From Cyanidioschyzon merolae (lineage: Eukaryota), in the NCBI GenBank assembly GCA_000091205.1, contig AP006497.2: 64,000 nt of DNA; one strand, 5' to 3'. This document shows, piece by piece, positions 2,925 to 58,365 of the stretch. The position numbers and the translations under genes are program-made. Position 1 is the first letter of the stretch; each line of letters starts with the position of its first letter. The notes beneath the pieces were generated by a model. The model saw only the letters and a list, made by a program, of their open reading frames with translations, was not told the DNA's origin and made no database searches.

Positions 2925-2925
2925 C

Positions 2926-14157: not shown

Positions 14158-16176
14158 TGCATTGCAGGGATTGGATAGATGGACGGATGGATGAAGGGTT
14201 TCATAGGATCCATCGATGCCCGTGAACTAGTGTACGCTGGATCATTTGTGGATGCTCTTGATAGACCCCGGGTATTGATTCACTTGGTTAGAGGTCGATT
14301 GCCGAGTCATCGATGGAGATCGAGCACCACTCAGAACCTCTGTTGGTGTCGGTTCCGCGAGCTCACCCTGTATACCACGTTTCGCTAGCATATGCACTGA
14401 CAACACGGTGCTCTCGGAGTGCATATGAAACCGCTGACGCCTGGTTCCTGCTCTGAGCCGTCCATATCGTCGCTTCGCTATGGGACGAACGCGGAGTCGA
14501 TATCGACCCAGCGGGACGTTGCCTGGGGTGTCTGCGCCTCGGTCGCTGCTGCTCGCAGTGCAGTGCTCGTAGCGCTCGTACGGCAGTACGTCTGGGACGG
14601 GTTACGTTCGTGCGTGGCGCAGACGTGGTATCGGTGCTCGTGTGTGTGTATGACGGTGAAAAGAACGCGCTTGACGTCCAGATGGTGCTTTACAGTGCAT
14701 GACGCCAGGAGGTACGCTCGATGCTCCTGAGGTCGTCGCGCCAACCGACGCAGGATTACCGACTCGGTTCATGGAGTGTCCGGCTGGATGCGTACTCTGG
14801 AAGGAACAACACCCGAGTCAGAATGAAATGGAGCAGGTCCTCGAACGGGAGCGCAAACGCACATGTTTGAGCATCGTCTCGTTGTCCTGCATCGCGAACG
14901 TTTTCCGGCTTTTCCCGGTACGGATTCATGCGTCTCTTGTCCCTTACTTCGGGGCGTCAACTACGCGAGCCCTCTCATGCCGCCAGCGCCGTTACCTGCA
15001 GTCGAAAGACGATCGTGGAAGCGTGATCCTTCCGATATTGCCGATTTTTCGGCTGCTGTGGACGCGTTTCATGCACAGGCGGAGTACCCGACCTGCGCTT
15101 TGCTGGTCATTTTCATCCTGATGAGTACCGCCTCGGTGCACGCTCTACAGTCGTCATCGTCGACTGTGGTCAGGTATTCCCGTAGTAGATCGATCAAACT
15201 GCCTCCGGAGAGCGCTCGTTTGGTTATTCGGCAGAGAGGCCCCTGACGCGTACGGTAAGCTCGCCTCGATGTGCGCTTTCGTCTCCGTGCCCAGTGCCGT
15301 ACGCTAGGATCACGGGCTTGTTCTGGGCAATGCCCTCAGCGAGCAGACGACGCACTGTAATCACACATGTGATCCCTGGGCCATTCGATAGAGGATTCTG
15401 CAGAACGCAATATCTTCCGTGATGCATCGTAGAGCGCAAGGAAAATCCAGGTCGCGGATGCAGTTGAGAAATGTCGATAACGTTGACGCTGGTGCCATGC
15501 AAACCAGTGATGCATTCGGCACATCCAAGTGACCGCCATCATGACTCACATCCGAATCCGATATACGTTTTCATTGAAAAAGAACAGGCATGAGCCTCCT
15601 GTACCCGAATCGGATGCTCTTGTCGTCGAGTCCCGTTTCGTCGATGACAGCCCAGAGAGGATGATGTATCTTTCTAACGGAATCAGTAGTTGGACAAGTT
15701 GCGTGATCTTGCTCTGAACCGCACCTGAAAAGGAATTCGTCAAGCGACGTTGTCGAAGAGCGTGCCGCGAAACCCAACCATCGAAACCTCGAAACATGCG
15801 TTATTCCAGCGTGCTCCAAGAAAAAGCACGGTATAGATTCTGGAGTAGTAGATATGATTTGGATCATGATATTCGTGGGTTCACGAACGACATTTCGAAG
15901 GTGTTCGGTGCTGCGATGATTCCGGTGACGTGACGAGTTCCGGTGCCAATGAGTCCACGGAGATACATCTGAGGTTCGATCAAGAACCATGAAACGAAAT
16001 ATGCGTCTGGAACACCACATACCTATACTTTGATTGTCTAGGTTTTCATACAAAATTTTGCAAAGAGGAGCAAGATCGAACCATGCTGTTTCCTTTTTGT
16101 CATCTGCGACGGTGGTACTCCTGCTCTGCATTGTTGTGATCGTTGTTGTCGACATCGACGGCGACAAGTTGCTTGT

Positions 16177-28945: not shown

Positions 28946-31218
28946 TTTGATCTGAGGCTAACAACGGTGCCTTGCCTACAGGTATAATCCGTGACCTGCG
29001 AGGTTCTCGCGAGAGCCTGATCGCGCCTGGTGACTCGATTCTCTTCGGGCCCTGGTGAGGCCGCCTCACAGACTCGCCGCGCTCACTGCTCCGGAGTGAT
29101 CAACGACGATGCGGTAAGACTCTTATGCGACTTCTTCAAACCGTACAGCACTCAATCCCTCTGAAAAATTATCGCACCAGAGCTGCAGCCCGTAGGAAAG
29201 CAACGTGGCGAGCACCGACCCTAAACGGCCAGGTCTAGCGAAAACACCGTGGTTTGCGGCGCTATGGCTTGGGCGCTTCCGCGTTCGGGTTTAGGCATTT
29301 CGCCGTTGTCGCTTCTGCGGAAGCGCTTTTGCCAAGCACCAATTGTTCCCGGGGAAACGCGCTAAGCGTTGCACTTGCCACGCCAGCTTCACTCGGGCGA
29401 GTACCTGGAATCGGAACACCAGTCACGTTGAGCACGGTCACAAACGAATACTGCAGGTAAAGACTTTGGGTTCTTTGCACAAGATTGCGTTGCTTGGGTC
29501 AGTCATGCGTCGCTGACGCCGTTCCTCCATAGACGCAGCAGTCGAGGCGTTTAGCCCAGTGCAGAGCAGCTCCCCAACGATCGAGAAACAAAACCTCTGT
29601 ACTTCTTCGCAGAAGAAGAAAAGCGCGCAATGTCCCGTTTCTGCTGTCGAAGGCGAGAGCTCGCACGCTCATATTGGGTTGCCCCGGCGAGCGTTCACGT
29701 GCTGCCATTAAGCGCTGGATGACCACACGGGGGTTCGTGCGTCGACGTACGGTTACGTCACAGGGCGAACATCCGTAGACGTCGTCTCTGATCCTTAGCA
29801 GAGCGGCTGGTATTTTAGAACTCGTTCACCACGATTGACATCTAGTAAGGATTCAACGGCTCACGTGTGTGGCTGGGATGCGTCCTGCGTGCTTCGGGCT
29901 AGCGCGAAGCCTACCATCCGCCTCAGCGTTTTGGAATCGCCGCTTGCTGCGACCTGTTTCCGAACGAATGAATCCGCGGCGACGTATCGCGACCGGGGTG
30001 TTTTCAGGTTACCAACGAGGAGCCGCAAGTAGCCAAAGATGGTATCATAGAGTGCGCTTCGGATGCCTGTGTATCGTCGAGCGCATCGGCGAACTGGCAC
30101 CGTTCTGCATTCAGGCTAATGCCGAGCTGCACATTCTCCGAGACCTTCAGGTCTACGTACCACGAGGTCTTGCGAACCACCAGGAATCCTCTTTCTCATC
30201 AGATGAACTCAACATGGACTTTGGCTTTAGCGATCGATCCATCTTATCCGGCGATGGCTCTTCGGCGAGCGGCACTGAGGTCCTCTCTTCGCGTGGTGTC
30301 AAGACGAAGAGTCCAACAAGCTGGCCAGGGGTTTCGGGACGATCCATGGCCCTTCATCTTAAGAGCGACTCGTCAGCGGCATTGCCATTCGAAAAGGGAG
30401 CGTGCGCTTTTGCCGAATGCTTGCGTACCTCTATCGAAGGTCTGTGTGCATGTGACGCAACCTCGCGGATCCGCCACAGCGCCACGACCCGATGCACTCA
30501 TGGAGTGATTTCTACTCGTACTTCCAGGCAAAAGTGCGGACAGGAACCCATGCGTCCCATTTTCTTGGCGATCATCCCATTCGGTGACCGTTACCACTCG
30601 GCTGAGAAAACCGGATGCGAGCACCAAAACCGCCTCCTATCGAGTGCATGAACAGATGTAAATGTGCGGATGACGTAGACCCCGCCCAAACAACCCATAC
30701 CATCGACAAGAGAACAGATATGAGGATGGTGAAACGCCCTATTCTGTGGAGAAGAACGGTGGTGGTCGCTTCCCTGGTTTCCGCGAGCGGTCGTGTCTCC
30801 GGGGGCATCCGCTGAGACGCGACAATCCTCCACTACGGAAAACAAAGCATTGGTGCCCCGGTGAATCGCGTGCGCCACAGCGCGCGTCATGAGCCGGTTC
30901 GATGTGCACACAGATCCCAAGTCTCCTTTTGATCCAATTTTACCCAGCAGGAGCGGTGGGTACTGCACCTCCCTATGCACATGGGTCCAGTTTCGTCATG
31001 CACTTTCAGGGCGGATAAGCAAAGCTCGCTTCCGTAGTCGCTCTGCGTTTGCTACGCTTCAGGTACAAGTAGCGTGCAAGCTGTCTGATCCCGTCATGTT
31101 TCTGGTGACAAAAAATTATCTAGCAGTACGCTTGTCGATCCGTGCAGAGGGAAACGCAGCGTTCACTCGAACGGTTTCGCAGAGAGGCAGGCTTCGAAGC
31201 GAACGTAACCGCTGGAGT

Positions 31219-31854
31219 ATGCACCACAGAGGCAGCGGCTTTGGGGCTAGGGCGCCAGTCACTGCAGACAGCTCCTCACGTAAAGAGCGAAACGTGCTGC
31301 GTTCTTTCGCCACTGCAGCGCTGGTAGCGCTGATGGCCGTTTCCAGTTTCAACTCGCCACTGAAACTTTACCGGCCGGCGTTCGCTGAGGAGGTTTTCAA
31401 GGTACCCGGAGGTGGTGCCTCTACTCTCGCAACAGGCACCTCAAAAATCGTCACAAGAGGCGTCAACTTGGAAGGAGCAAACTTTGCAAAGCAAGACTTA
31501 CACGGGGTCTCGTTTCAGCAGAGCATTGTGCGGGATGTCGACTTTTCCGGAAGCAACCTGCAGGATGCTTCGTTTTTTGATGCGGACTGTAGCGGAGCAA
31601 ACTTTCAGAATGCCAACCTCTCGCGAGCAAATCTGGAGCTCGCAAACTTACGCAAGGCGGATCTCAGAAACGCAATACTCACGAATGCCTATGTCGTTGG
31701 GCAGACCAAACTCGAAGGCATACAGATCGAGGGTTCCGACTGGACCGATGTTCTGCTTCGACCCGATCAACGACGGTTGCTATGTAAGCGAGCCTCCGGG
31801 GAGAACCCTGTGACACACATTGCGACCAAAGACTCGCTCGGTTGCGCGGATTAG
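31219..31854 (+). CDS. Pentapeptide-repeat protein with a bipartite transit peptide (thylakoid-lumen TL15/TL17-like)
   Basis: Tandem A(D/N)LXX pentapeptides ([69 protein letters not shown]). These are preceded by a hydroxylated/basic presequence, a hydrophobic stretch [11 protein letters not shown] and an AxA site (PAFA/EE). The open frame extends upstream to 30889, and alternative starts are 30889 and 31096. Confidence 0.6.
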
Positions 31855-32793
31855 GTAGGTGCATGCTCTGGGGAGTGATTTGGAGTAGGTATGTGCCTTG
31901 TCGTCAACCAGACAATCCGACACCAGTCGGTTTAGAGCTGACGCAGAATGTTTTTGCAAATGTCGCTCGTCGGAATACTAGGAAAGTTGCCGGCGTTTCA
32001 TTTTGCGTTTAGGGCGGGTATTCACGGGAGCGACAAGCCTAGATGCAACATTGCAGGGTAGCGTGTTCGTACCTAGAATGTCGAGGTCGTCTGCGCGCCA
32101 TTTCGGTCCGCAAGCTAGCCTTTGCATCGTTGCTGATTAAAGCGCAAGGCGCTTGTTTGTTGATAAAGGCTGATGCAACGTCAACATCGGCCGTTGGCGG
32201 TATTCCCGGCCCACCGCTTCTCGACAGCAGTGTTGGAAGAGCGGGATCGTTGTATTGCTAAACTCACTTAACTCCCCCATGGATCCGTGTCTACTAGGAA
32301 AGCCCTATGGGCATCAGATATGAGGTGTGCCAGCACGTGCATTGGAGATAGTGGAAACGCCAAACGCCGAATAAATCAGCTTCTCCAGGAGAGTTCCGCC
32401 CATGGGTGATGAAAGTGTCACCATCTCGTCTGGCGGTAAGTTCATGAAGAACCCCGTACTTGCATCGCAGTCGCTATGGCATCGTCTAGAACGCACAGCC
32501 AGCTCATCGAATACGCAACTCAATAGGGAAATGCAGTCGCGATATGAAAACAAAGGTTATGTGGCGGGGAAGTCACTTATCCTAGGTAGAGCCCGAGTGG
32601 CGCCCCAGTCTGGCTCTAGAACTCAAAGTGCAGCATTCTCATTTTTTCTCGCCGGCACGCCAGCTCTAACTTGTTCTCGAACCAGCGAAGATAGAAACGA
32701 TATGACAGCATAGATGCGTTTGCAGACAACAAAGTCTGACGGAGTGCTATTTTTTAAAGCTCGTACCATTTTCAGCATAAAATGGATCAGGTC

Positions 32794-34156
32794 ATCGAAA
32801 ACGGGCTCACACACGACACTTTGGGTCACTTGCCAGAGCAATCAGCACCGGCCTCTGCGACGTATTTCTCTGGTGGCTTGCTTTCCCTCCATCTGATCTC
32901 CAGCTTCAAATACACCGGTCGCTCGTCACGCTCCAGCTCCATGCACAGCAGTCGACGGTTGTCGATGGCAGCGTTCAAGACCCGATCTCGCTGGCTGCAG
33001 CTGTTGTTTACGCATTTCATGCCGAGGCAAAGGTCGCGATCTGCGCCTCGCTTGCCAGGCTCCTCCTCTATGTGTACGGCGTCCGCGCGCCCCGAACAGC
33101 CACGACACGTGGCAACGGCGAGTCGTTCCCGTAGGCACACACGACGACCCCGCCGCCGACTGCCGGCCTGCGGTGCACGACCGCCCGCTTCATCGCCCGG
33201 GACATGCCCTTGACGGGTCCGGAGAGCTCCGGTCGATGCCGGCCACGGTTTTGCCGCGCCCGATGCCCTACTCCTCGATCAAGCACGTCGTCGGGACGAC
33301 GCTTTTGCTGAATGCACTGCCCGCTGCACGCCCGAGCACACGCGCTTCCATTGGATGAGGGATCCGTGGAATGCGATGTGGTCCCATGAAGAAACAAGCA
33401 CCAGAGACAGAATCCTGGCTCGGGAACGGGTCGAGGGATTTCCACTCGCCGACGCTGCCGTTGTGCGAAACGGCTAGGCATGCTGGAATGGACACGATCG
33501 CTGCGATAGTTCAGGCCAGAGTGCAGCACCCGTTTCGGTGCGAGCGGCACCGCCGGGAGCCTGCTGGAGCGTATCCCGCGAGACGTATCCTGTTGCTGTC
33601 GAATGCAGCTTCATCGATAGTCGGGAAGACAGCAGGGTTTTTGTTTTGAGGGGAATCGATTCGCGAACGTTTGACGGGTCATTGGGTTTGGATGTGAGCT
33701 TTTGAATGGATCTTCAAGAAGCGACGACAAGTTTTGACCGCCGTCAACGCAGTGGCGCAGGTTGCTGTGCCCCGCCTACACGGCGTCCAGTAGGTCGATC
33801 GATGACTTGAGGAATGCGTCGTTTGCATATGCTAAACGCAGGGAGCGGAGAAACGCGAGTGCTTTTGCCCATGCATTCGATCATCATACAGGTATTTACG
33901 AATCCCAGTGTTATCGTGTGTCGCGAATTCGCTTGATCCTGGTGAAGAACCGATGTTGAGCGGCAAAGCGCCGAGGGCGTCATTCGAAGCCCTCGACCAA
34001 GCATCTTAGAACTACACATGACTCCGCAAATTCCCGGTGATGCATCTTGAATGTCGAATCTGTGCATCCTGATCAAGTTGGAATTGAATCGGAAGGCAGT
34101 AATAGGGGGCAAGCAGTTCAGTGTTCCAGTTTTATCTGACACTGCAGCCGAGCCGC
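32794..34156. repeat. Left arm of a 1.36-kb inverted repeat (element R1)
   Basis: It is the reverse complement of 36539..37896 at about 97-98% identity, checked on several stretches such as ccttccgattcaattccaacttgatcagg. The mirrored ORF pairs in the track (32782/37478, 33068/37141, 33371/37042, 33744/36459, 33762/36732) trace the same relationship. Confidence 0.9.
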
Positions 34157-34342
34157 GCGATGACGCACGATGCTCCAAATCGTCGCCCGCTCTACTCGTG
34201 CACTGGTGATACGACAAGAGGCGCTGAGTCGGAGACCGAGAAGCATAGCCATTGACTGCGCCTACGCAAAAACCTCTTGGGACTTTATCCTTTTCTCGAG
34301 CACCTTCCTGGAATAAAGCTGCTGTTGAACAGTTACGAAAGG

Positions 34343-36145
34343 ATGGTGGTTCTCGCGATCGCTATTTTGAACAAGCTCGGCCGGCTACTGATTTCTCGTC
34401 AGTTTCGTGAGATGCAGCGGACCCGCGTCGAAGGTCTACTCGCCGCTTTTCCGAAACTTTTGGAAAACGAGATGACACGGAGTGGGGAGAATCGCCAACA
34501 CACGTTCCTCGAGTCGGACACGGTTCGCTACGTATACCAGCCAGTGGAAAATCTCTATGTGGTGTTAATCACGAACAAGACGAGCAATATCGTCCAAGAT
34601 CTTGAGACGCTTCGTTTGGTCAGCAAGTTGCTCGCAGAGCTCAGCCCGATCGTGGGAGTGATCGATGAAACCGCCGTATACGAAGCAGCTTTCGACTTGA
34701 TCTTTGCCTTTGATGAGGTCATCGACTGGGGCGGCTACGCAGAGGCCGTGAACGTGCCTCAGATTCGTCAGTATCTCGAAATGTATAGCCACGAGGAGCG
34801 CTTAGCAAAAATGATCAAAGAGAGCAAAATGCATGAGGCGAAAGAGGAGATGCGTCGAAAGGCGAATCTCATTGAGAAACAGAAGCAAGACCTTGCGAAA
34901 CTGCCGCCCGAGATACGACGCCTCATGGGCCTTGAAGGGAGCTCAGTTTCGGCAGGCTCTGGCGCGCCTGCAGTGTCTACCGGTGCGTATTCAACGGGGA
35001 ATATGCGAGGATTCGGGCCCCAAGACTTTTCTGGTGCTCTCGGAGGCAGCACTCTGCTTGGCGATGTTGGACCTGCTCCGTCCTTGACGCTGGGCGCCAC
35101 CAGAATAGCAGCGGACCAGTCGGCAAGCATCACGGTTTCAGCCGGAGGCCGGGGTCTGTCTCTCGGGAAGCCAAAGGCTCGCACCGAGGACTGGATGGCG
35201 CACCTGCATGCTGAGAGTGAAACATCTTCCGCAGATGCGCAACGCTCGCGCGTTACTCCCGATCATACGGAGCCTACAGCGTCGCAACGAGCTGCGAAGA
35301 CAGTCCCGTCCGAATCCGCCACTCGAGCGGTTGCAACATCTTCAATCCCTGCGTCTGATTTCCATCTAACGACCGAGGAGAAGCTGAGTATATCACTCAC
35401 TCGTGACGGTCGACTCGAGAGCTTTCAAGTACACGGCGAGCTTCTCCTTCAGATACGCGATCAAAAGCGGGCACACGCTCGCATCCGGCTGAAACCGCTT
35501 CCGGAATCGATGATGCAAAAGGTGCAGCTGCGACTGCATCCGATGTTGGATCGTTCGCTTTGGCAACAGTCGTGGGTGCTCGCACAACGCAACGCGGAGC
35601 GCCCGTTTCCCTATGGTAGCCCGACGCCAATGAGCCTGATCAAGTGGCGTTTTCAGTCCACTGATGAGAGTCTGCTGCCTGTGCTTCTGACCTGTTGGCC
35701 AACAGTCTCCAGTGATGAGACGTCGATGACGATCGAGTATGAGATGATGTCTCGCGCATCGGTTTCCTCAGACTTGTGTCCTCCGTCATCGCTGTCTTCC
35801 GTGCAGGTGCACGTACCGTTGCCGCGAACAGCAGTACAGCCTGGATTCTTCCAGTTGACACGTGTGGACGGCCGTGCAACGCTGGATGAAGCCGCCGCTG
35901 CCGTGCTTTGGACGTTGCCTCCGCTGGAGGCGCCCTGTAGCGGTGCGCTAGAGTTTACGATTGCAGCTGTAGAAAATCCCGAGCGTATGTTTCCGATTCA
36001 AATACAGATATCGGCCACAGAGGTTTATACGAAGCTTGAAATTTTGCGGGTGGAGGTGGCGACATCCCCAGAGTCGGTGCCAACGGAGGAGACGGCGTTC
36101 ACGCAGGAGCATCGCCTGCTCACCGATCGATTCGAGATTGTATGA
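34343..36145 (+). CDS. ARCN1: Coatomer (COPI) subunit delta, with a longin-like N-terminus and a mu-homology C-terminus
   Basis: [39 protein letters not shown] matches human ARCN1 [39 protein letters not shown]. Further matches are ...[16 protein letters not shown]...LETLRL...[10 protein letters not shown]...AKEEMRRKA. The maximal ORF starts at 34277, and I chose the homolog-aligned Met. Confidence 0.92.
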   Translation: [600 protein letters not shown]

Positions 36146-36538
36146 GAAAGCACCTGCCTGGTGTAAGCGTTTTTTTTTGCATTCGCGTGGTCTCGTAGAA
36201 ATATGCCTCCGTGGACGCCAGTATGCGTCATGTTGGGCGCGTCGATATTTTGCGGCAAAGTGCGGCTCGATCGCCAGTCTGGGAAGCTGATGCACCAACG
36301 CACTAGTAGTGGATGCTGCGATTCAGAATAAGCGCCTTTTATATCGGTGGATCGATGCTTGGTAGCCGCATAGGGGTTCCGCTTCGTATACCAGGTGGGT
36401 CTGATTCACCTCCGGAAACCAGAGCAGGATCTACACGAAATCATGTAGGAGGATTACCGTGGACATTACGATCCAGAAGAATTCTGCACGTATTCCCCAT
36501 GATTCAGGGATGAGTGCGAATGTACCCGACCCGGATGC

Positions 36539-37896
36539 CTCGGCTGCAGTGTCAGATAAAACTGGAACACTGAACTGCTTGCCCCCTATTACTGCCTTCC
36601 GATTCAATTCCAACTTGATCAGGATGCACAGATTCGACATTCGAGATGCATCACCGGGAATTTCCGGAGTCATGTGTAGTTCTAAGATGCTTGGTCGAGG
36701 GCTTCGAATGACGCCCTCGGCGCTTTGCCGCTCAACATCGGTTCTTCACCAGGATCAAGCGAATTCGCGACACACGATAACACTGGGATTCGTAAATACC
36801 TGTATGATGATCGAATGCATGGGCAAAAGCACTCGCGTTTCTCCGCTCCCTGCGTTTAGCATATGCAAACGACGCATTCCTCAAGTCATCGATCGACCTA
36901 CTGGACGCCGTGTAGGCGGGGCACAGCAACCTGCGCCACTGCGTTGACGGCGGTCAAAACTTGTCGTCGCTTCTTGAAGATCCATTCAAAAGCTCACATC
37001 CAAACCCAATGACCCGTCAAACGTTCGCGAATCGATTCCCCTCAAAACAAAAACCCTGCTGTCTTCCCGACTATCGATGAAGCTGCATTCGACAGCAACA
37101 GGATACGTCTCGCGGGATACGCTCCAGCAGGCTCCCGGCGGTGCCGCTCGCACCGAAACGGGTGCTGCACTCTGGCCTGAACTATCGCAGCGATCGTGTC
37201 CATTCCAGCATGCCTAGCCGTTTCGCACAACGGCAGCGTCGGCGAGTGGAAATCCCTCGACCCGTTCCCGAGCCAGGATTCTGTCTCTGGTGCTTGTTTC
37301 TTCATGGGACCACATCGCATTCCACGGATCCCTCATCCAATGGAAGCGCGTGTGCTCGGGCGTGCAGCGGGCAGTGCATTCGGCAAAAGCGTCGTCCCGA
37401 CGACGTGCTTGATCGAGGAGTACGGCATCGGGCGCGGCAAAACCGTGGCCGGCATCGACCGGAGCTCTCCGGACCCGTCAAGGGCATGTCCCGGGCGATG
37501 AAGCGGACGGTCGTGCACCGCAGGCCGGCAGTCGGCGACGGGGTCGTCGTGTGTGCCAACGGGAACGACTCGCCGTTGCCACGTGTCGTGGCTGTTCGGG
37601 GCGCGCGGACGCCGTACACATAGAGGAGGAGCCTGGCAAGCGAGGCGCAGATCGCGACCTTTGCCTCGGCATGAAATGCGTAAACAACAGCTGCAGCCAG
37701 CGAGATCGGGTCTTGAACGCTGCCATCGACAACCGTCGACTGCTGTGCATGGAGCTGGAGCGTGACCAGCGACCGGCGTATTTGAAGCTGGAGATCAGAT
37801 GGAGGGAAAGCAAGCCACCAGAGAAATACGTCGCAGAGGCCGGTGCTGATTGCTCTGGCAAGTGACCCAAAGTGTCGTGTGTGGGCCCGTTTTCGA
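36539..37896. repeat. Right arm of the 1.36-kb inverted repeat (element R1)
   Basis: See the left arm. The two arms flank a unique 2.38-kb spacer that contains the complete coatomer delta CDS. Confidence 0.9.
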
Positions 37897-38237
37897 TCAG
37901 CCGGGATACCGTTCTTCGCTTTCCGACATTGATGTGAAAAGCGCGTACCGTTCCGTTCTTTCTTGCCCAGATATCGGTGACGATGCGTCCATAAGATGAC
38001 ACCCGTAGAGACCAGATACGATCACAATATCCGGTTGGCATGGGCCCCCACATCTCGCACAAACGCCCCCTGATGTTACTGGGTCGTTCTTTGAGCGCTG
38101 CAGCGCTGACGACCGGCTCCACCCGGAAACCGGCATTGCCTCTTTGCCGATGTTTATCGTTCGTGTGAGACGCTCTTCCAAAAAGCCGTAGGTGTTCTGG
38201 ACACGCGTCCCAGCCTAACACGCGATTTTGATAGAGA

Positions 38238-41024
38238 ATGGAGCGGTTGCTGACCGCCATTTCAAGATTGAAGCTGGGCACGCATCCCCAGGTCAGTTCG
38301 GTGGCTGACCACCAGCTGAAGTCTTCGGCAGCGGCGCTTTCGCGGACGCTATGCAGTACCAGTGACGGTACGCGCCTTTTCTTGCTTGGGGCAGACGGCG
38401 GGCTCTGGCTGACGAATGCCGAGGAACTGTGGCGTTCTGCACAGCGGCTCGGCGAAGAGTCGCGAACGGAGTTCTTCGTGAGCAGCTCTGGAACGCTGGG
38501 GACTCCCGTACACTTGACTCCAGCGTTACGCTTCAAGCCGATCGCTTGCGCGCTTTCGAGCTCGGATCGATTTCTTGCTCTTTATGACGAGGAGTTTTGC
38601 GCGGTTGTGGACCTCCAAACAGTGCCGAGTTCGCAGACTTGGCTGGATCAAATAGCCCCCGCACCTGTGACTGCACCCGCTGTGCTACTAGGTAGTCGAA
38701 CTAGTCAGAGGGCTGCTTTCACGCTACGAAGCATTCGCCAGGTAAGTTGGCATCCCTGGAGTGATGGACGCCTCGCTATCCTCTACGATGATGGCATGCT
38801 GGAGCTTTACGATACCTTGGAAGCTACGCTACCGGAGCAGACCTTGCGCATTCGCTTGCCGCTGTCGGGGAGTGAAGCACCTGCCGCAACAGGCGTCGAA
38901 GACACCACTGTTGCATCAGTCAGTATCCAGAACGTCTCTGGTGCGCTGGAGCAAACCGCAGGACAGCGCACATTGGTCAAAACTGAAGCTCCAGCGGCAT
39001 TCGCTTTCGGCCCATTAACGGAACCATCGGAATATCCTTGGGAGCTTGTCACGCTGTATTTGTTGCGAGAGTCTGATGGAGCGCTGTTTATTCTCTGTCC
39101 GTTTGCTCCTACTGGACTGCGCTTGCCCGCAGTGTGGGTAGAAGCTGTTCATGGTCAGCTGGAGACTGGAGCGCTCGCGGATACAGCAACTTCTTCGGCA
39201 GCAGACGCGACCACATGGGCCGAACTACAGATGCGTTTACGACGAGAATGGCTGGCACTCTGCACCAGTCGGCAAGCTCGTATGGATCTCGAGAGCCACC
39301 GCGCAGACTCCGAAAAAGCGCCTCCCGTATATCGTTTGCTTCGACCTCCACGCACCTTTAACATGCAATGGACGCCGCTTCTGCAGGGCCCGGTCCATAT
39401 CGAGCATGATGCTGCAACAGCAGCGAGTCATTGGGCACCCGCGTGCGGCATCCAGGTTCTTCCGAGCCCGCTAGGTCCGCTCCTGCTCCGTACCTGGTGG
39501 CACGGTGTTCTAGACGTGCTTGTCACTATGGAAAAGGTGGAACCTGTCTGGGCCCCGTCGTCAGAGTGTTCAGAACAGCTGCCCGCAGAGGAGGATGTTG
39601 CGCCATCGCTGCTTCTCTATGAGCGCATCTTCACGGGCGCTCCCTGTGCTCATTCGATCGTTGGCGAGAGCCCCACAGGGCTCTCCACGTCCTGTGCAGC
39701 AAACGATGAGCATTTACCACTTCCATGGGTGTCACCTGCGCAGACAGTGCCCCGTCTGCAACGCAGTGTGCTGCTCATACGCAGCCACCAGGGCGTCTCG
39801 GCCCTCTATTTGACGTGGCTGGATATGATCAGCCACGTGCTTTCCCCGAGAAGTTGGCCGTCTAGCTCGCTTTTCCATTCCGAACCGGATTCCAATGACG
39901 AGTTTATGGAAAGTGAGCAGCTTGAACAGCTGTTGGAGCAGTTGCCATGCTCCACGCTTGTGCAGTCGCTGGCGTCAGAGGCGGCTCCGCTGGGCCTCGC
40001 AGAGCTGCGCCTCCCCAGTACAGTGACACTTGTGAATGGCCCAGCCGCGAACCTGCTGCTTGCAATGGATGCTGATGGAGAGCACTTGCGAGCAGCGGCA
40101 TTGCACTGGTGGCGCTTACCGAGCGTGGGCGCGAGCCTCCGTTTCCCGCGCTCTTCCATGACTACGCGGGAACTCGAATACACGGATCTGGTGCACGCAT
40201 GTTCGCCGGCGGTGAAAGCAGGAGCAGCAGCAGCATCAACAACAACAACAACAACAGTAGCGACGAAAATACGTTCAGCATCGGGGCTAACGCCTTTGGA
40301 GCAAAAGCTCACGCAGGTATTCGGTTCCCTGGTGCCATGGCACACGTCCGGAGTCAGTCATGCTGCAGCGACAGGCGACGCGCAAGAACTTTGGGAACAG
40401 ACGCGAACGCTCGTTCTCCTTTGGCAGATGATACAGACGATTATCCAGCCGCTGCGACTTTTCTATGCACAAACGCTATCATCGACTATAGAACAGCTTC
40501 CTCTGAGACTGGAAACGAACGCACGTCAGTACAGCTACCTCCAACACCGCCTAGAAATGCTGCAAAGTCGAGCAAGAGACTTGGATCATCGCATTCGTAT
40601 CCTGGCGACAGGAATGAATGAAAATCTCCAAAAGCGCGCTGCAGGTCTATCGGAGCTGCTGCTGCATCGGAAACCTATGATCACTCCGCTGGAGCGCCAG
40701 TGTTTTCGCCAGCTCGAGCGCTATCGCGAACGCCTCTGCGAGTTCCAGCAGCGCCTTACGCAGTTACAACGGCAGGCTGCAGCGGCGCGGCAATCAGGAA
40801 GCAGGGCGCTGCCCGAGCTTGATATCAGGGAAGACTGGTCGCTGTTACGAAAAACCCAACAGCGTGAGATTCGTCAAGCTATCGAAGAGAACACCCGTCG
40901 TTTGGAACGGCTTTGCCAGGTTTCGCAGGAAACACGAGCGTCGATCGAGCGACTTGTGCATATGCACGACATGCGGTTCTCGTCGTTAACGGGAACGTGC
41001 AAAGACGACACTCGGATTCTCTAG
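38238..41024 (+). CDS. Nup88/Nup82-like nucleoporin, with an N-terminal beta-propeller-like region and a C-terminal coiled coil
   Basis: A 928-aa ORF. SIRQVSWHPWSDGRLAILYDDGMLELYD resembles the Nup88 block [28 protein letters not shown]. The C-terminal coiled coil ...PMITPLERQCFRQLERYRERL resembles the Nup88 C-terminus [24 protein letters not shown]. It contains a poly-T/A insertion. The assignment is from recall and is tentative. Confidence 0.5.
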   Translation: MERLLTAISRLKLGTHPQVSSVADHQLKSSAAALSRTLCSTSDGTRLFLLGADGGLWLTNAEELWRSAQRLGEESRTEFFVSSSGTLGTPVHLTPALRFKPIACALSSSDRFLALYDEEFCAVVDLQTVPSSQTWLDQIAPAPVTAPAVLLGSRTSQRAAFTLRSIRQVSWHPWSDGRLAILYDDGMLELYDTLEATLPEQTLRIRLPLSGSEAPAATGVEDTTVASVSIQNVSGALEQTAGQRTLVKTEAPAAFAFGPLTEPSEYPWELVTLYLLRESDGALFILCPFAPTGLRLPAVWVEAVHGQLETGALADTATSSAADATTWAELQMRLRREWLALCTSRQARMDLESHRADSEKAPPVYRLLRPPRTFNMQWTPLLQGPVHIEHDAATAASHWAPACGIQVLPSPLGPLLLRTWWHGVLDVLVTMEKVEPVWAPSSECSEQLPAEEDVAPSLLLYERIFTGAPCAHSIVGESPTGLSTSCAANDEHLPLPWVSPAQTVPRLQRSVLLIRSHQGVSALYLTWLDMISHVLSPRSWPSSSLFHSEPDSNDEFMESEQLEQLLEQLPCSTLVQSLASEAAPLGLAELRLPSTVTLVNGPAANLLLAMDADGEHLRAAALHWWRLPSVGASLRFPRSSMTTRELEYTDLVHACSPAVKAGAAAASTTTTTTVATKIRSASGLTPLEQKLTQVFGSLVPWHTSGVSHAAATGDAQELWEQTRTLVLLWQMIQTIIQPLRLFYAQTLSSTIEQLPLRLETNARQYSYLQHRLEMLQSRARDLDHRIRILATGMNENLQKRAAGLSELLLHRKPMITPLERQCFRQLERYRERLCEFQQRLTQLQRQAAAARQSGSRALPELDIREDWSLLRKTQQREIRQAIEENTRRLERLCQVSQETRASIERLVHMHDMRFSSLTGTCKDDTRIL

Positions 41025-43619: not shown

Positions 43620-44779
43620 GGCGGCTGGTGCTGCTGTCGCTGATACGACTGCAGGAGGCCGTTAGCGAGCAGGCGAGCGCCGGTCTCAGCAGGTCGCTGT
43701 GTTGACGGCAACGCGTTTCTTGCCCCGTTCAAATATGAAAGCCGCTATCCAGCACCTTTCAGGTGCACAAACTCTTCATCAAACTCGCATAAAGTTCAGT
43801 ATACTGGAACTGGAAACTCCGTTGCGGCACGTTGCGTCTGGTACGAACGGCCCAAGGCGTGCAACGCTGCTTCGATTCCGTTGCCATGGGGTGGCGATCG
43901 CTCGCCACGTCGCGCTCTTGTAGGCTCGTATCCAATGAACGTGTCACTCTGAACTGATCGCACTGATCTTGCTTTTCGATTTTGTTTCCGAACCTTTTCC
44001 TAGACGTAAAGCATCGCTATTCGGAGTACGTCAATACGGGCTTATGGATTCATGTGTAGTTATAGGGAGTCATGGTCGTCATTTACGAATGGCTTCTTTG
44101 GATCTCTGCTGCTGGAAATGATGAACACAACAGAATCAAGATGATCCGCAACGTACCCCTACAAGAGTTCGTGAAATACCTGAGATCACTATCAGATTTT
44201 AATGTACAAGCGTCCAGTCTGCTCCTTTCCGTACGGGTATGGCATGTTCAAATCATGCATTTTCCAAGTTCCTCTTTCGTTCTGTTTCAAGGCATCTCTT
44301 GGACGCTGCAATTCGGGTCGCCTTATTGACGAGAAAACATCCACGATATCGTATCTTGACAGCATTCGCACCTGCTTACGCCGAAATGTGAGTCAACTTC
44401 TGACGCTAAATAATCGATCCGGCTCGAAGGATAAATCTGGGTACCTTCGTGGTCATCGATGAAATGGCCTCCAACAGCACTTGGGTATCTCTCAAGGCAG
44501 ATGCTGCCCGGTGCTTCCATCTCTTCTGTTTGCCTGGAAATGCGCGTCGGGCCCGGACATGAGTCATCGGAGCGAGCGCGTCGAGTGCAGCGTACGTCAC
44601 TGCCTTGCACAAAGGGAACCTAGAAGCATCGACATTGCTCGACGTGCTCCCCGGCCTGGATATTCCTTCCCGTGCTGTGTTTCATCACGGGCAACGCCAT
44701 GCCCTGCACATCCTCTACCGAACCGTGTTGCGTGCGCTCGCAAGTGCAGCCGACCGAGTACTTGCCGAACGTAGCGATT

Positions 44780-45320
44780 AGAGGAGGCCGCAGAACGCGG
44801 GGTGCGGCACCAGACGCCGATGCAGAAAGCGCGCCCAACCTATCGTCAGGCACCCGTCGAGGGAATGTAACGTGCGGTAAAGTAAGCGTTTGTGGGCCAC
44901 ATGGCGGAACTCGGAGGAGGACCTTTTATGGACAGATGGGAACACCTGATCACAGTCAACTGCCACCACTGCCAAGGGTTCACCGAGCATGCATACAAAG
45001 GAGATGAAAAAAAACAAGCGAAATATAGATCGCAACTTCCGCCTCTGCATGAAATGCGTTGAAAACAGATCGAAGCTACGAAAACGGAGCTTGAACGCTG
45101 ACATCAGCATCCTGCAACTGCTTATCACGAAGCGGGACGGAGACGAGCGACCAGCATATTTAAAGCCGGTGATCCGAGAGAATAAAACGAAGCAGTCATG
45201 GCAAAAGTTCGCACGAAGCTGATGATGACGACACACAGAGGAGACCCGGAACTTTAGTATGCATACACGAGTTACTGAACCCGTTCCATTTCTTATTCTG
45301 ACATGGATGCAGGCTAGCAA
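44780..45320. repeat. Diverged partial third copy of IR element R1, corresponding to the outer part of the arms
   Basis: Translations from both strands (44778..45320 minus, ...ITGFKYAGRSS...MSAFKLRFRS...THFMQRRKLRS; 44989..45222 plus, LCMKCVENRS...LNADI...DERPAYLKPVIRENK) parallel the arm ORFs (ISSFKYTGRSS...MAAFKTRSRW...THFMPRQRSRS and LGMKCVNNSC...LNAAI...DERPVYLKLEIRWRESK) at about 50% aa identity in both frames. That pattern means DNA-level homology and not coding conservation. Confidence 0.5.
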
Positions 45321-46270: not shown

Positions 46271-46657
46271 TTGATGGCAAAGAATGTGAATGATCAAACA
46301 GAGCTCCGGATCGGACACGAGGGGAACCAACAGATAGAGGCCCTGCTCAAAGAGCGGAACGAACTCTCCGAGGCACTCGCACAGACACAGGCCCAGCTTG
46401 CTGCAGCGCTCATGCGGGTCGAGGCCGCAACTCGTGTGATAGAACGCCTCCTTCGTGAACGCCAACCACTGCCTCAGGAAGAGTCGAGCCCATCACCGTC
46501 ACCTACTTTATCGAAAGAATCCGTGGGTGCGGCAGAGCCCGCGTCATCGACGACGAGTCGCGCAGGGTCCAACACCCGTGGCCGTCGTACCCGGAGCTGT
46601 GTGCGCCGCGGAGGTTCCTTCCAGGACCTACCGGAGCGCTCCGCTAAAAAGCGATGA
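46271..46657 (+). CDS. Hypothetical coiled-coil protein, possibly the first segment of a larger frameshifted or spliced gene continuing to about 47140
   Basis: ORF MMAKNVNDQTELRIGHEGNQQIEALLKERNELSEALAQTQAQLAAALMRVEAATRVIERLLRERQ has a heptad-like character. Adjacent ORFs 46455..46901 and 46856..47140 in other frames have protein-like composition. I recognised no homolog. Confidence 0.25.
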   Translation: MMAKNVNDQTELRIGHEGNQQIEALLKERNELSEALAQTQAQLAAALMRVEAATRVIERLLRERQPLPQEESSPSPSPTLSKESVGAAEPASSTTSRAGSNTRGRRTRSCVRRGGSFQDLPERSAKKR

Positions 46658-48469
46658 CTCTCCGAGGCCTCCAATGATTTTCCGCCACATATGGATGCAA
46701 CACCATTCGCTTGAAGCGCTTCTTATGAGAGATTACGCGGATAGCTTGGTGGCGCTTTTCTTCACCAGCGGTTTCCCGCGCAATGACTTTGAGCCACAGA
46801 CATCGAAATCTCCGGAAGCAGGAAGCAATGCAGAAATGCAGGTCCATCGTCCTATATGGATGGATTATATCGGCTTGCTTCCAATGATGGAGCACGATTG
46901 ACGAATGCACGGATATGGATGGCAGCGCTTGAGCCGTCCCATTGTGATCCAGATCATTACCCGGAAAGATGCGCGCTGCTTTCACTGTTAATGTCGAAGC
47001 AGCGCGCTGTTTGGCACGTGGCTGCTTTCATTTTCCAAGAAGATATTCGTGGCTTGCGCTTTCGTTTTTCGAAAAACGTGCAATCCCGAAATCCGCACAT
47101 GGATAAGGACCTCGAGCAGGCAATGCTGAGCGTATGCTGAAGCCATCCTCTCTTCATATGGCGACTGCAAAAGGTACGGTATTCGGCAGGTAACCAGATC
47201 GATCGAGTGCCTTGGATGAAGCGCAGCAATCCGCTGGGACACCTAGTCCAGTTTGCGCAACGCTGCAGTGATGTAGAGACTGTACATATGCAGAGATCGG
47301 GTTCTCAGTGAACAGCAACCGAGCAGTATTCACTGGCATCTCGAGCTCGTATGCAGAGCCCAGGGTCGTGTTTTGCGGGCAGCGCTTCAACCGAGCGCAT
47401 GGAACGCTGCGGTGCGAGTGCTGCGACATGAATATGGTCATGGAGCAGGCGAGCTCTTCACCAGACTACGGGCATTTTTTTCCGCAAAAGGGTACATTCT
47501 GGTGGATGCTGCGGCACCATGTCACGGAAATTCGAACAGCTTTTCAGAGAGATAGGCATTCATCGTAAACGTCATTGCGCGGACTAAGTGGCGGGCGTTG
47601 TCCAGATACGTGACGAAACGCAAGGCGAGTGGGAGCTATTAATGGCAGGCAGGGCTCGAATCTCACCTTCGTGACTGAATATGGAGTCGCTGAGCGGACG
47701 TTTTGCGACGAGTTTACATGATCGCCCTTAGACGACGATGAATCAGAGATCGCCAGGTACAAGCGTTCCACCAAAGACGAAAATATCTGTGATGACGCTG
47801 CCGGATGCGCAGTGCTCTCACAAGGCCATGTGCAAGCGCTCCATAAAACAGACCCAAATCGCTGATGATCCGGTTGCATCGTCAGCGCTTCCAACAGGTA
47901 GCGTGGTCTCCGAATCAAGCCCCGATTCACCAAGATACGATGCCGAACAACAACACGTCGCTCCAGTGCCGATGCTTCAGTGGTGCTAGAGCCAACAACA
48001 AAGTCCTCAACCAATAACGCACGGGCACTTTTGCTAGTTTGTCACTTTGGGGCTAAAAGAAAAACTTGCCAGTGAAGGACTGCTTTGTCACGTGCTGTGT
48101 TCGCGTGAACAGGTTCCGGCCTTTTGGTGGAGGTCACACCACCTCCACCTGAGACGTCTACGATGCCCGTGGGTTCAGGAGATCACGACTCCGACCAAAA
48201 AAAACAGGCCGATTCAGGTCCTTCGACCCAGGACCAGCGGCCCGTCTGGCGGCGACAGCTTCACAGTTTTACGTGCGTAGCGGCAAACCGTACGCACCGG
48301 AGCCAGTCTGCGCGTTCGTGCGCCGGACGAATGGGCAACGGGTCAGACTCAGCATGACTCCAGGATAAACGGCATGAAGGTATTTCGGACATGATCTGCG
48401 TACCGAATCCGTCCCATTTCGAACCGGAGGAAGTATATACGCCCTCCAGGCGCGATGTCGTGGCACCAA

Positions 48470-49411
48470 TCACGCTGTGAACCAAGCACTCGTTGCTGAT
48501 GGCTTCTTCTCGCCAAGCTGTGCCACAAGTTGCTCGCGCAGAATGGGATACATAGCAACTGCAGCCTGTTGCGCACAGCAAAATGCCTTTGAGAAGCTCT
48601 CCGGAGCACGAATATCGTCGACTGTGCTGTCATCCCGACGTCGTTGGCTCGTGGCACCACGCCACTGCAGATCTGCAGTTAGGCCCAGATTCGGCAACAG
48701 AGCAACCCATAGACGCCCTTCGTGGGCGCTGGCTTCCTCTTCCGATGTTGGAAAAGCGATGCAGGTCTGCTCTGTGCCTGCATACCCCGGTGTCGCGTTA
48801 ACGGCGACAGAGACGCCGACAAGTGCATCAACGAGCGCGACCCCGGCATCTAGACAAGCGGCCCAGGCCGCGGTTGTTGCAAGCGCAAGTTCACTGCCAC
48901 CCTCCTCCAGAACCCAGATATATACCCAGAACTGTAGTCGTGGGTATTCAGTGCGAGCGATGACACACTCGAGGGAGCGCGTTAGCGCCGCTGCGAACCT
49001 TCGCTCCGTTTCGCTGAGCGTAGCGCGTCCGCGCGAGGGTGCCCAGCGCTGCTCGTCCGATTCTCCACCGGCAAACTGGAGTCCAGTGGATATCGTATCT
49101 GATTCTAGCGTCTGTATTGATAACGGGCGGCTTGAGAGCCCCTGGCGGTACTCCACGACCACGGTTGCCAGCTCAGTGTCGGTGTCGGTGCTCCCCTGGG
49201 GCGGCCGCGGTCCGAATACCGCAGCCACGACTTTTGTCTTCCCTAACTGGCAAACAGCGCTGCCCTCGGGCCTGGAAAGAACGCCCAACTGGCAGCGGAA
49301 CGACTTCATCGCATACTTACGTACTTGGCACGCGTCCTTGAAGGCACGGCGAAGGCCTGGAGCGCTATGTACTTGGGCGGCGGTTGGTACAACCACGAGC
49401 ATTTTTTTCAT
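48470..49411 (-). CDS. Exosome complex RNase PH-like subunit (Rrp41/Rrp46/Mtr3 family)
   Basis: FRCQLGVLSRPEGSAVCQLGKTKVVAAVFGPR matches the RNase PH N-terminal motif (DGRxxxElR...dGSa.ve.GnTkvl.av.GP). ...VLEEGGSELALATTAAWAACLDAGVALVDALVGVSVAV matches Rrp41 [38 protein letters not shown]. Confidence 0.65.
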   Translation of the reverse strand: MKKMLVVVPTAAQVHSAPGLRRAFKDACQVRKYAMKSFRCQLGVLSRPEGSAVCQLGKTKVVAAVFGPRPPQGSTDTDTELATVVVEYRQGLSSRPLSIQTLESDTISTGLQFAGGESDEQRWAPSRGRATLSETERRFAAALTRSLECVIARTEYPRLQFWVYIWVLEEGGSELALATTAAWAACLDAGVALVDALVGVSVAVNATPGYAGTEQTCIAFPTSEEEASAHEGRLWVALLPNLGLTADLQWRGATSQRRRDDSTVDDIRAPESFSKAFCCAQQAAVAMYPILREQLVAQLGEKKPSATSAWFTA

Positions 49412-49736
49412 TTTTTCTCGATTTCACGAGATGTTGACATAGGCCAGCGTTCCTCGACGGTGCGCCTGATATCAGCGCGCGGTAAAGCATCCATTGATCC
49501 AACTACTTCCAGGTTCAATATTCTATACTTCATCTCGGATATACTAGTCGTCTCATACGTACTATCGTGTGCCGCGTGCCTGGCGTAATCGTCCGCGATA
49601 TAGCGCCCGTACCGTCGGTGCGGATGCAGCACGGAGACAGAACGACTCTGGCGCGCCCCAGAGTGCGTCAGCTCGAGCGCGTAAACTGATACCCACTCAC
49701 TGGCGCTTCTCCGGTTTTGTTGACCCGCAGACTGCA

Positions 49737-57796: not shown

Positions 57797-58056
57797 TAGC
57801 TTTCGTCACGATCGCACCCAAAGGTAGATGTTGGCCAGCTGCGTCCAATCCTTTACAAAACCTTCACGTTTTAGACTATCCGCGTACACCGCACCGCCCT
57901 AGAGGCTGCTCGTACGCACCGCAACTCTTCCGTCGAAGCGAAAAGCACTACCACTACTACCACCACCACCAAAGAATCTCGCAGTCAAGGTGCTCGATGC
58001 AGGTACAAGTGCCCGGCGGCGCCGGCGTGCTACCCGAAAGCCTGGATCACAGCGCG

Positions 58057-58089
58057 CCTGCCTGCCTGCCTGGCTGCCTGCCTGCCTGG

Positions 58090-58124
<35 letters not shown>

Positions 58125-58192
58125 GCTGCCTGCCTGTCTGCCTGGCTGCCTGCCTGCCTGCCTGCCTGCCTGTCTGCCTGCCGGCGCGCCGC
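58057..58192. repeat. (CTGC)n tetranucleotide microsatellite with CTGG/CTGT variants, about 34 units
   Basis: cctgcctgcctggctgcctgcctgcctgg... read directly over about 136 bp. Confidence 0.95.
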
Positions 58193-58244
58193 GCACCCCC
58201 GTCGCGCACAATCGCAGCAGCGATACGCTGCCGCCCCTGAATTG

Positions 58245-58272
58245 CGTGTGTGTGTGTGTGCGCGCGCGCGCG
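58245..58272. repeat. (GT)7(GC)6 alternating purine-pyrimidine tract with Z-DNA-forming potential
   Basis: gtgtgtgtgtgtgtgtgcgcgcgcgcgcg. Confidence 0.9.
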
Positions 58273-58339
58273 ACGGGCGGGTATCGCGGCGTCGACGACG
58301 CAGTCACCGGCCCGGGCATCGCGTTCATGGACACGAGGC

Positions 58340-58365
58340 CGCTGCTGCTGCTGCTGCTGCTGCTG
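58340..58365. repeat. (GCT)n trinucleotide microsatellite
   Basis: gctgctgctgctgctgctgctgctg. Confidence 0.9.

What the first reader, a model, noticed from the sequence alone, without database searches (positions are those of the whole stretch)
32794..37896. Complete coatomer delta (ARCN1) gene sits in the 2.4-kb spacer of a near-perfect 1.36-kb inverted-repeat pair
Sequences 32794..34156 and 36539..37896 are reverse complements at about 97-98% identity. The arms appear non-coding: their mirrored ORFs are R/S/P-rich with no recognisable homology. The unique spacer 34157..36538 carries the entire essential COPI delta-subunit CDS, so its promoter must lie within or within 190 bp of the left arm. 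The structure could be two oppositely oriented insertions of a dispersed element (R1), because a third diverged copy exists at 44.8-45.3 kb, or a TIR-bounded composite element that captured or bracketed a housekeeping gene. Read-through transcription across the locus would give an RNA with a 1.36-kb perfect stem, a potent dsRNA/siRNA substrate. The high arm identity implies a recent insertion or ongoing gene conversion.
Basis: seen in the sequence. Interest (0 to 1): 0.8.

Follow-up and report, generated by a model that had tools for sequence, protein, structure and literature searches.

The report
Inverted repeat pair bracketing delta-COP gene

Summary
Window 32794-34152 and 36539-37897 are reverse complements over 1359 nt, with 10 mismatches and no gaps (99.26%). 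They bracket a 2386-nt spacer holding the complete delta-COP CDS (34343-36145).

The window is C. merolae 10D chromosome 15. Independent environmental assemblies about 99% identical to it reproduce all four arm/unique-sequence junctions, so this is not an assembly artefact.

The arms are non-coding by every test run. They are two members of a dispersed, roughly 1.39-kb repeat family (R1). Two more full-length copies, only 50-56% identical, lie at 43.9-45.3 kb and 14.8-16.1 kb.

Three related genera keep the same gene order without the repeat, so delta-COP was not captured or moved. The two 10D arms differ at 10 sites but differ from wild-strain arms at 14-29 sites. They are also GC-enriched relative to the solitary copies. 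Both facts point to gene conversion between the arms.

Contigs that cross a whole arm show the spacer in both orientations. Short-read path ambiguity cannot be excluded, so inversion is plausible but unproven.

The composite-transposon and siRNA readings are not supported; published work reports that C. merolae lacks RNAi. Interest is modest.

The parts
32794..34152 (+). Left arm of the inverted repeat; an R1 repeat copy read from its outer end to its inner end
   Evidence: 1359 nt, 10 mismatches against the right arm. No Pfam hit in any of six frames. No codon-usage signal. No Rfam hit.
32762..32793 (+). About 30 nt of R1 family homology lying just outside the IR boundary in the left flank (conserved ...TCAG.AT.AAATGGA.CAGGTC)
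   Evidence: left flank versus copy c4 z = 8.2, versus c3 z = 4.2 (against shuffles). Alignment shown.
34153..36538 (.). Unique spacer (2386 nt), the segment that would invert
   Evidence: Short metagenome contigs L005-L008 break essentially at the arms' inner boundaries (L007 exactly at 34153 and 36538; the others within about 10 nt, or carrying up to 56 nt of arm).
34343..36145 (+). Delta-COP (coatomer delta, ARCN1 orthologue) CDS, 600 aa
   Evidence: Adap_comp_sub 3.5e-19; longin-like N-terminus, Clat_adaptor_s, E = 0.001, below the Pfam cutoff. (64% identity to Cyanidiococcus coatomer delta). (same 90% cluster as BAM81555.1, 600 aa).
36539..37897 (-). Right arm of the inverted repeat; an R1 copy without clear family homology beyond its outer end
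   Evidence: right flank versus c3 z = 3.6, but no match to c4 or to the left flank.
43918..45309 (-). Solitary diverged full-length R1 copy (c3), between the JmjC gene and the Prp19-like region
   Evidence: nhmmer E = 3e-83. Three-copy HMM hit 43905-45289. 55.8% identical to the arm. GC 50.6%.
14808..16115 (+). Solitary diverged R1 copy (c4), ending about 60 nt from the 3' end of the TOG/XMAP215 gene
   Evidence: nhmmer E = 8e-39. HMM hit 14844-16101. 49.9% identical to the arm. GC 51.7%.
30889..31854 (+). Left flanking gene: pentapeptide-repeat protein
   Evidence: Pentapeptide 6.8e-18. Same position and orientation in relatives.
38238..41024 (+). Right flanking gene: Nup88/Nup82-like protein CYME_CMO203C
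   Evidence: 100% identical to BAM81556.1 of C. merolae 10D, on a 902,900-bp contig.

Best explanation
The arms are two oppositely oriented copies of R1, an old non-coding dispersed repeat of about 1.39 kb that is specific to the C. merolae lineage. They sit in the two intergenic regions around delta-COP, which itself remains at its ancestral position. Other R1 copies have drifted to 50-56% identity. This pair lies only 2.4 kb apart in an organism with efficient homologous recombination, and recurrent intrachromosomal gene conversion keeps it near-identical (shown by comparison with wild strains). Conversion covers the whole element except its outermost ~30 nt. The same recombination, when resolved as a crossover, would invert the 2.4-kb spacer (inferred, not proven). 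Inversion should be nearly neutral, because each end of the spacer would still adjoin the same arm sequence (same inner end, 99.3% identical) for 1.36 kb. The arms have no demonstrated function of their own.
For: The IR is exact and sharply bounded. R1 family: nhmmer finds full-length copies at 43.9-45.3 kb (E = 3e-83) and 14.8-16.1 kb (E = 8e-39). phmmer of an arm ORF finds five further unnamed ORF clusters, all from metagenome or read-archive assemblies. The arms appear non-coding. There are no Pfam hits in six frames, no codon-usage signal and no Rfam hit. The 42 polymorphic sites show no 3-periodicity (17/13/12, p = 0.61). Between strains the arms diverge 1.0-2.1%, against about 0.5-1.3% for the longer single-copy intergenic stretches and 0.1-0.4% for most CDS. 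Ancestral locus: Cyanidiococcus (L010), a third cyanidiophyte (L011-14) and Cyanidium (L015) share the same gene order and orientation, with no IR and no R1. Concerted evolution: the IR is present in all wild haplotypes, and the 10D arms differ at 10 sites while each differs at 14-29 sites from every wild arm. GC-biased conversion signature: arm GC is 57.6-57.8% against 50.6% and 51.7% in the solitary copies. Weak-to-strong versus strong-to-weak changes are 99:57 on the arm lineage against 151:208 on c3 plus c4 (Fisher p = 9e-6). Both spacer orientations occur among arm-crossing contigs. Reference-like: L023, L025, L044. Flipped: L001, L002 (+5 similar), L019, L035-37, L041. HR-based gene targeting is routine in C. 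merolae (PMC8642924).
Against: The orientation evidence comes from short-read metagenome assemblies. Such assemblers can choose either path through a collapsed 1.36-kb repeat. One contig of the same series (L045) is plainly chimeric. In the samples that yield flipped contigs, the right-flank contigs stop at or before the arm boundary, which would force the assembler onto the left-flank path. The GC-bias signal weakens to p = 0.05 in the 633 best-aligned columns. Whether the right arm is an independent old insertion or a later 5'-truncated duplicate of the left copy is unresolved. No TSDs or other transposon hallmarks were found, so how R1 spread is unknown.
Confidence: 0.72

Rival explanations
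1. A single, fairly recent inverted duplication. The left copy is the only original R1 member here. A DNA-repair or replication template switch copied 1359 nt of it, minus its first ~30 nt, in inverse orientation downstream of delta-COP. High identity then mainly reflects youth.
For: Family homology continues ~30 nt beyond the IR boundary on the left flank (z = 8.2 and 4.2). It is absent or marginal on the right flank (z = 3.6 to c3, none to c4 or to the left flank). No other young copy exists: the 27-mer occurs only at this locus.
Against: The IR, with identical boundaries, is present in every wild haplotype. Orthologous arm divergence (14-29 differences) exceeds paralogous divergence (10), so conversion has acted since the strains split, however the pair arose. 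The GC enrichment of the arm lineage suggests long-term conversion. The junctions show no microhomology. This rival concerns origin only and is compatible with the main explanation.
Confidence: 0.35
2. A composite or TIR-bounded mobile element that captured or brackets delta-COP and can move as a unit.
For: Two copies of the same repeat in inverted orientation flank a gene.
Against: Gene order and orientation around delta-COP are identical in three other genera that lack the repeat. There is no TSD around either arm or around the 5.1-kb unit, and no TIR within the arms. There are no transposase or RT domains. The arm 27-mer is found nowhere else.
Confidence: 0.03
3. A functional hairpin or regulatory locus. 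The arms would be selected, for example as a source of long dsRNA or small RNAs, or as shared regulatory modules for delta-COP and its neighbours.
For: Read-through transcription would give a 1.36-kb near-perfect stem. The left arm ends 190 nt upstream of the delta-COP ATG (sequence).
Against: The arms evolve faster than most single-copy intergenic DNA between strains, which argues against constraint. No Rfam family matches. C. merolae is reported to lack RNAi machinery (PMC11376382). Relatives run the same genes without the repeat.
Confidence: 0.05
4. An assembly artefact in the reference sequence.
For: None found.
Against: The window is the finished C. merolae 10D chromosome 15 (PMC1955436). 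Independent contigs reproduce left flank|arm, right flank|arm, arm|spacer-5' and arm|spacer-3'.
Confidence: 0.01

Closest known systems
Inverted segmental duplications that undergo concerted evolution and non-allelic homologous recombination, e.g. the 11.3-kb inverted repeats flanking FLNA-EMD on human Xq28 and the palindrome arms of sex chromosomes (from my own knowledge, not checked here)
   Same: Near-identical inverted arms flank single-copy housekeeping genes. Arm-to-arm identity exceeds orthologous identity because of gene conversion. There is a GC-biased substitution signature. The spacer is expected, and here possibly observed, in both orientations.
   Different: This example is much smaller (1.36-kb arms, 2.4-kb spacer). 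It lies in a haploid unicellular red alga. The arms derive from a dispersed repeat family. Inversion polymorphism is not yet proven.
Flip-flop isomerisation of plastid genomes through their large inverted repeats
   Same: Homologous recombination between long inverted repeats gives two isomers that differ only in the orientation of the single-copy segment. The arms are kept identical by copy correction.
   Different: That system is organellar and multicopy, and its arms carry rRNA genes. This one is a nuclear single-copy locus with non-coding arms.
Composite transposons or inverted transposon pairs flanking a gene
   Same: Two copies of a repeat family in opposite orientation bracket a gene.
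   Different: There is no transposase, TIR or TSD. The bracketed gene is at its ancestral syntenic position. There is no evidence that the unit moves.
Site-specific invertible segments (the yeast 2-micron FLP/FRT system, bacterial invertons)
   Same: A DNA segment bounded by inverted repeats that can invert.
   Different: No recombinase gene lies in or next to the segment, and the arms are long and generic. Any inversion here would use general homologous recombination and would not switch expression.

Membership tests
Inverted repeat pair under concerted evolution / NAHR | Two long arms in inverted orientation with high identity and sharp boundaries | tested here: met
   1359 nt, 99.26% identity; identity beyond the boundaries is random.
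Inverted repeat pair under concerted evolution / NAHR | Paralogous arms within a genome are more alike than orthologous arms between lineages that share the repeat | tested here: met
   The 10D arms differ at 10 sites. Each differs at 14-29 sites from every wild-strain arm. The IR is present in all strains.
Inverted repeat pair under concerted evolution / NAHR | The spacer is found in both orientations in a population | tested here: inconclusive
   Both junction sets appear among arm-crossing contigs (L023, L025, L044 versus L001, L002, L019, L035-37, L041). Short-read path ambiguity and a chimeric contig (L045) prevent a conclusion.
Inverted repeat pair under concerted evolution / NAHR | GC-biased substitution in the converting arms relative to non-converting relatives | tested here: inconclusive
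   GC is 57.7% against 50.6% and 51.7%. Weak-to-strong versus strong-to-weak changes are 99:57 against 151:208 (p = 9e-6). In the best-aligned columns p = 0.05.
Dispersed repeat / transposable element family (R1) | Several homologous copies at unrelated loci | tested here: met
   Four copies at three loci in 64 kb, plus five other ORF clusters in environmental contigs.
Dispersed repeat / transposable element family (R1) | Common element termini | tested here: met
   A conserved 5' terminal ~30 nt is shared by the left copy, c3 and c4. Homology ends at a common 3' end.
Dispersed repeat / transposable element family (R1) | Target-site duplications, TIRs, LTRs or a poly-A tail | tested here: not met
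   None found at the arm ends. The old copies are too diverged to judge.
Dispersed repeat / transposable element family (R1) | Encodes, or derives from, a transposase or reverse transcriptase | tested here: not met
   No Pfam hit in six frames at E <= 1. The six-frame protein search returned nothing, though its sensitivity is doubtful.
Composite transposon carrying a captured gene | The bracketed gene sits at a non-ancestral location, or the unit occurs at more than one locus | tested here: not met
   Synteny is conserved in three genera. The arm 27-mer occurs only at this locus.
Site-specific invertible switch | A dedicated recombinase gene in or beside the segment, with short specific sites | tested here: not met
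   The spacer's only recognisable gene is delta-COP. The flanking genes are a pentapeptide-repeat protein and a Nup88-like protein.
Hairpin dsRNA / siRNA locus | The host has Dicer/Argonaute, and small RNAs map to the arms | not testable with these tools
   The literature states that C. merolae lacks RNAi machinery (PMC11376382 abstract). No RNA data were available here.

The most novel reading that the evidence does not exclude
The delta-COP cassette would be a naturally flip-flopping nuclear segment. Both orientations would coexist or alternate among wild C. merolae populations through homologous recombination between two R1 copies that have co-evolved by GC-biased gene conversion for a long time. 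R1 itself would be an undescribed, ancient and possibly abundant repeat family in a genome famous for having almost no transposons.
Probability: 0.4. Interest if true: 0.5.

Novelty: new member of a known kind. Interest (0 to 1): 0.35.

Why it matters
C. merolae is a model alga valued for its finished, repeat-poor genome and for gene targeting by homologous recombination. This locus is a compact natural reporter of nuclear recombination. Arm differences record gene conversion, and spacer orientation would record crossovers. It also shows that very old repeat families, invisible to BLAST, exist in this 'simple' genome. Anyone engineering or assembling this region should expect misassembly, and ectopic recombination is a possible risk. 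The structure itself is a familiar type and has no demonstrated function.

Tried and rejected
- **Coding arms.** Rejected. Pfam found nothing on the individual ORFs or on all six frames. There is no codon-usage contrast and no 3-periodicity of polymorphisms. Periodicity between family copies is only weak and inconsistent.
- **RNA genes in the arms.** No Rfam hit at E <= 1 over 30-50 kb, and no tRNAs.
- **TSD, TIR, LTR or poly-A at the arm ends.** None found.
- **Arm homology at the orthologous loci of relatives.** None by blastn at word sizes 11 and 7, nor by nhmmer.
- **My own early conclusion that the third copy was only a 150-nt remnant**. This was wrong. nhmmer and translated searches showed full-length diverged copies.
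- **Six-frame concatenated protein search.** It returned nothing, not even the near-identical JGI ORFs, so I treat it as uninformative.
- **Exact look-ups of the arm ORFs and the 600-aa delta-COP.** These failed.
- **Prp19 check by tblastn.** No hits.
- **Literature.** Searches for CMO202C and for inverted repeats in C. merolae found no description of this structure.
Full report
**Observation**

Repeat finding and blastn agree. Window 32794-34152 and 36539-37897 are reverse complements over 1359 nt with 10 mismatches and no gaps (99.26%). They are separated by 2386 nt. Outside both boundaries, similarity is at chance level (11/40 and 10/40 matches).

The spacer holds one long ORF. Its 600-aa product from the ATG at 34343 has an Adap_comp_sub mu-homology domain (3.5e-19) and a longin-like N-terminus (Clat_adaptor_s, E = 0.001, below the Pfam cutoff). 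It is 64%, 60% and 48% identical to coatomer delta of Cyanidiococcus, a third cyanidiophyte and Cyanidium respectively.

The neighbouring 928-aa ORF is 100% identical to CYME_CMO203C of Cyanidioschyzon merolae 10D, on a 902,900-bp record. The window is therefore chromosome 15 of the finished 10D genome (PMC1955436). The delta-COP ORF falls in the same 90% cluster as the 600-aa NCBI protein BAM81555.1. That accession is adjacent to BAM81556.1 (CMO203C), which suggests that no CDS is annotated in the right arm.

**Not an artefact**

JGI metagenome contigs about 99% identical to the window cover the locus.

- Short contigs L005-L008 break essentially at the inner ends of the arms (L007 exactly at 34153 and 36538).
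- L003, L004 and L009 carry arm sequence on both sides of the spacer.
- Left-flank contigs (L018, L021, L022) and right-flank contigs (L016, L017, L020, L026-32, L042-43) run 68-367 nt into an arm and stop.

All four junctions between an arm and unique sequence are thus independently confirmed.

**What the arms are**

No test gave any sign of coding.

- No Pfam hit for the individual ORFs or for all six frames at E <= 1.
- No frame shows the codon-usage contrast that delta-COP shows.
- The 42 sites that vary among strains fall 17/13/12 over the three phases (p = 0.61) and are evenly spread along the arm.
- No Rfam family or tRNA is found.
- Between 10D and the wild haplotypes the arms differ by 1.0-2.1%. 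The longer single-copy intergenic stretches differ by about 0.5-1.3% and most coding regions by 0.1-0.4%. The arms are at least as free to change as other spacer DNA.

I first took the 'third copy' for a 150-nt remnant, because blastn gave only 149 nt at 74%. That was wrong. A phmmer search with an arm ORF found five other unnamed ORF clusters from environmental contigs. Translated hits then pointed back to 44.4-45.1 kb and 15.2-15.5 kb in the window.

nhmmer then aligned arm positions 28-1349 to 45249-43928 on the minus strand (E = 3e-83). It aligned positions 109-1264 to 14953-16040 on the plus strand (E = 8e-39). A three-copy profile extends these hits to 43905-45289 and 14844-16101 and finds nothing more in the window. 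It finds nothing at the orthologous loci of three related genera.

The arms are therefore two of at least four copies of a dispersed repeat of about 1.39 kb, here called R1. The solitary copies are only 50-56% identical to the arms and to each other.

The family's conserved 5' end (...TCAG.AT.AAATGGA.CAGGTC) continues about 30 nt beyond the IR boundary in the left flank (z = 8.2 and 4.2 against shuffles). The right flank matches only c3, and only marginally (z = 3.6). Nothing is shared beyond the inner boundary.

No TSD, TIR, LTR or poly-A tail was found. How R1 spread therefore remains unknown.

A 27-mer from the arm occurs in nine contigs of the metagenome collection, all at this locus. There is thus no other young copy.

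**The gene did not move**

Cyanidiococcus (L010), the third species (L011-14) and Cyanidium (L015) all show the same order and orientation: TOG - proteasome alpha - Noc2 - pentapeptide - delta-COP - Nup88-like - JmjC - Prp19. Their intergenic spacers around delta-COP are short, and they have no inverted repeat and no R1. The composite-element or capture idea is therefore rejected.

**Gene conversion**

The IR has the same boundaries in every wild haplotype. Yet the two 10D arms differ at 10 sites, while each differs at 14-29 sites from every wild arm. About 22 sites separate both 10D arms together from the commonest wild type.

If the arms had evolved independently since an IR older than the strain split, paralogues could not be closer than orthologues. 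The arms must therefore have been homogenised within lineages.

Alleles that distinguish left from right in 10D (for example T/A/C against C/G/G at positions 14, 121 and 131) are found next to the same flank in different samples. This fits exchange between the arms, although phasing in short-read contigs is unreliable.

The arm lineage is also GC-enriched, at 57.6-57.8% against 50.6% and 51.7% in the solitary copies. Weak-to-strong versus strong-to-weak changes are 99:57 on the arm lineage against 151:208 in c3 plus c4 (Fisher p = 9e-6). In the 633 best-aligned columns the counts are 47:32 against 69:83 (p = 0.05). This is the expected mark of long-running GC-biased conversion, and I rate it as moderate evidence.

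**Inversion**

Contigs that cross a whole arm give both arrangements.

| Arrangement | Contig | Junctions shown |
|---|---|---|
| Reference-like (also the arrangement in the relatives) | L023 | left flank - arm - spacer 5' end |
| Reference-like | L025, L044 | spacer 3' end - arm - right flank |
| Flipped | L001, L002 (+5 similar), L019, L035, L036, L037 | left flank - arm - spacer 3' end |
| Flipped | L041 | right flank - arm - spacer 5' end |

The two sets cannot coexist in one genome, so either both isomers exist in nature or the assemblers chose paths arbitrarily.

I cannot decide between these. A 1.36-kb collapsed repeat exceeds typical insert sizes. In the samples that yield flipped contigs, the right-flank contigs end at or before the arm, which leaves the left flank as the only exit from the arm. 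One contig of the series (L045) is an obvious chimera with foreign AT-rich DNA.

On general grounds, crossovers should accompany the conversions that are documented, because C. merolae recombines homologous DNA efficiently (PMC8642924). Inversion would also leave 1.36 kb of the same arm sequence on each side of the gene. I put about even odds on a real polymorphism.

- The siRNA idea is undercut by the reported absence of RNAi machinery in C. merolae (PMC11376382).
- The promoter inference (190 nt of unique sequence plus arm upstream of the ATG) is reasonable but untested.
- The genome paper reports only 26 non-LTR and 8 class II elements and does not mention this structure (PMC1955436).
- I found no paper describing it.

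**Verdict**

This is a real, well-defined inverted pair of an old non-coding repeat. It shows clear concerted evolution and possibly a flipping spacer. It is a new example of a known kind of structure, of modest interest, and useful mainly as a natural recombination reporter in a model alga.

Noticed in passing
window 43918-45309 (-) and 14808-16115 (+): Two solitary full-length copies of the same ~1.39-kb repeat family (R1), only 50-56% identical to the arms. They are undetectable by blastn apart from a 149-nt patch. Three R1 loci in 64 kb hint at a sizeable old family in a genome described as nearly transposon-free.
   Followed up: partly
window 5877-6575: A tandem array of 7.6 copies of a 92-nt unit (95% matches), lying upstream of and overlapping the start of the 2177-aa ORF at 6479-13012.
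   Followed up: no
window 58056-58182: A (GCCT)n microsatellite of about 32 units lying inside overlapping long ORFs (57547-58545).
   Followed up: no
L045:1-1578 (JGI Ga0506598_000161): The contig is chimeric. Its first 1578 nt are AT-rich (about 45% GC over the first 1.7 kb), carry ~180-nt internal repeats, and are unrelated to the window. They are joined 47 nt upstream of the Nup88-like ATG. This shows that these assemblies can make false joins.
   Followed up: partly
window 46271-48000: Only a 128-aa ORF with the Prp19 domain is open where relatives have a full Prp19 plus WD40 gene; downstream frames are broken. The third cyanidiophyte also splits this gene (94 + 408 aa). It may contain an intron or be degraded. 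tblastn with Cyanidium Prp19 gave no hit.
   Followed up: partly
window 48470-49411 (-) and 48477-49442 (+): An RNase PH-like gene has an equally long antisense ORF of 321 aa. This is probably a by-product of GC-rich coding sequence.
   Followed up: no
window 2896-2927 and 54401-54432: A 32-nt direct match with one mismatch between two distant sites. Its significance is unknown.
   Followed up: no
L010:9193-9486 (Cyanidiococcus): Three tandem 98-nt repeats lie in the pentapeptide/delta-COP intergenic region of Cyanidiococcus. They are unrelated to R1.
   Followed up: no
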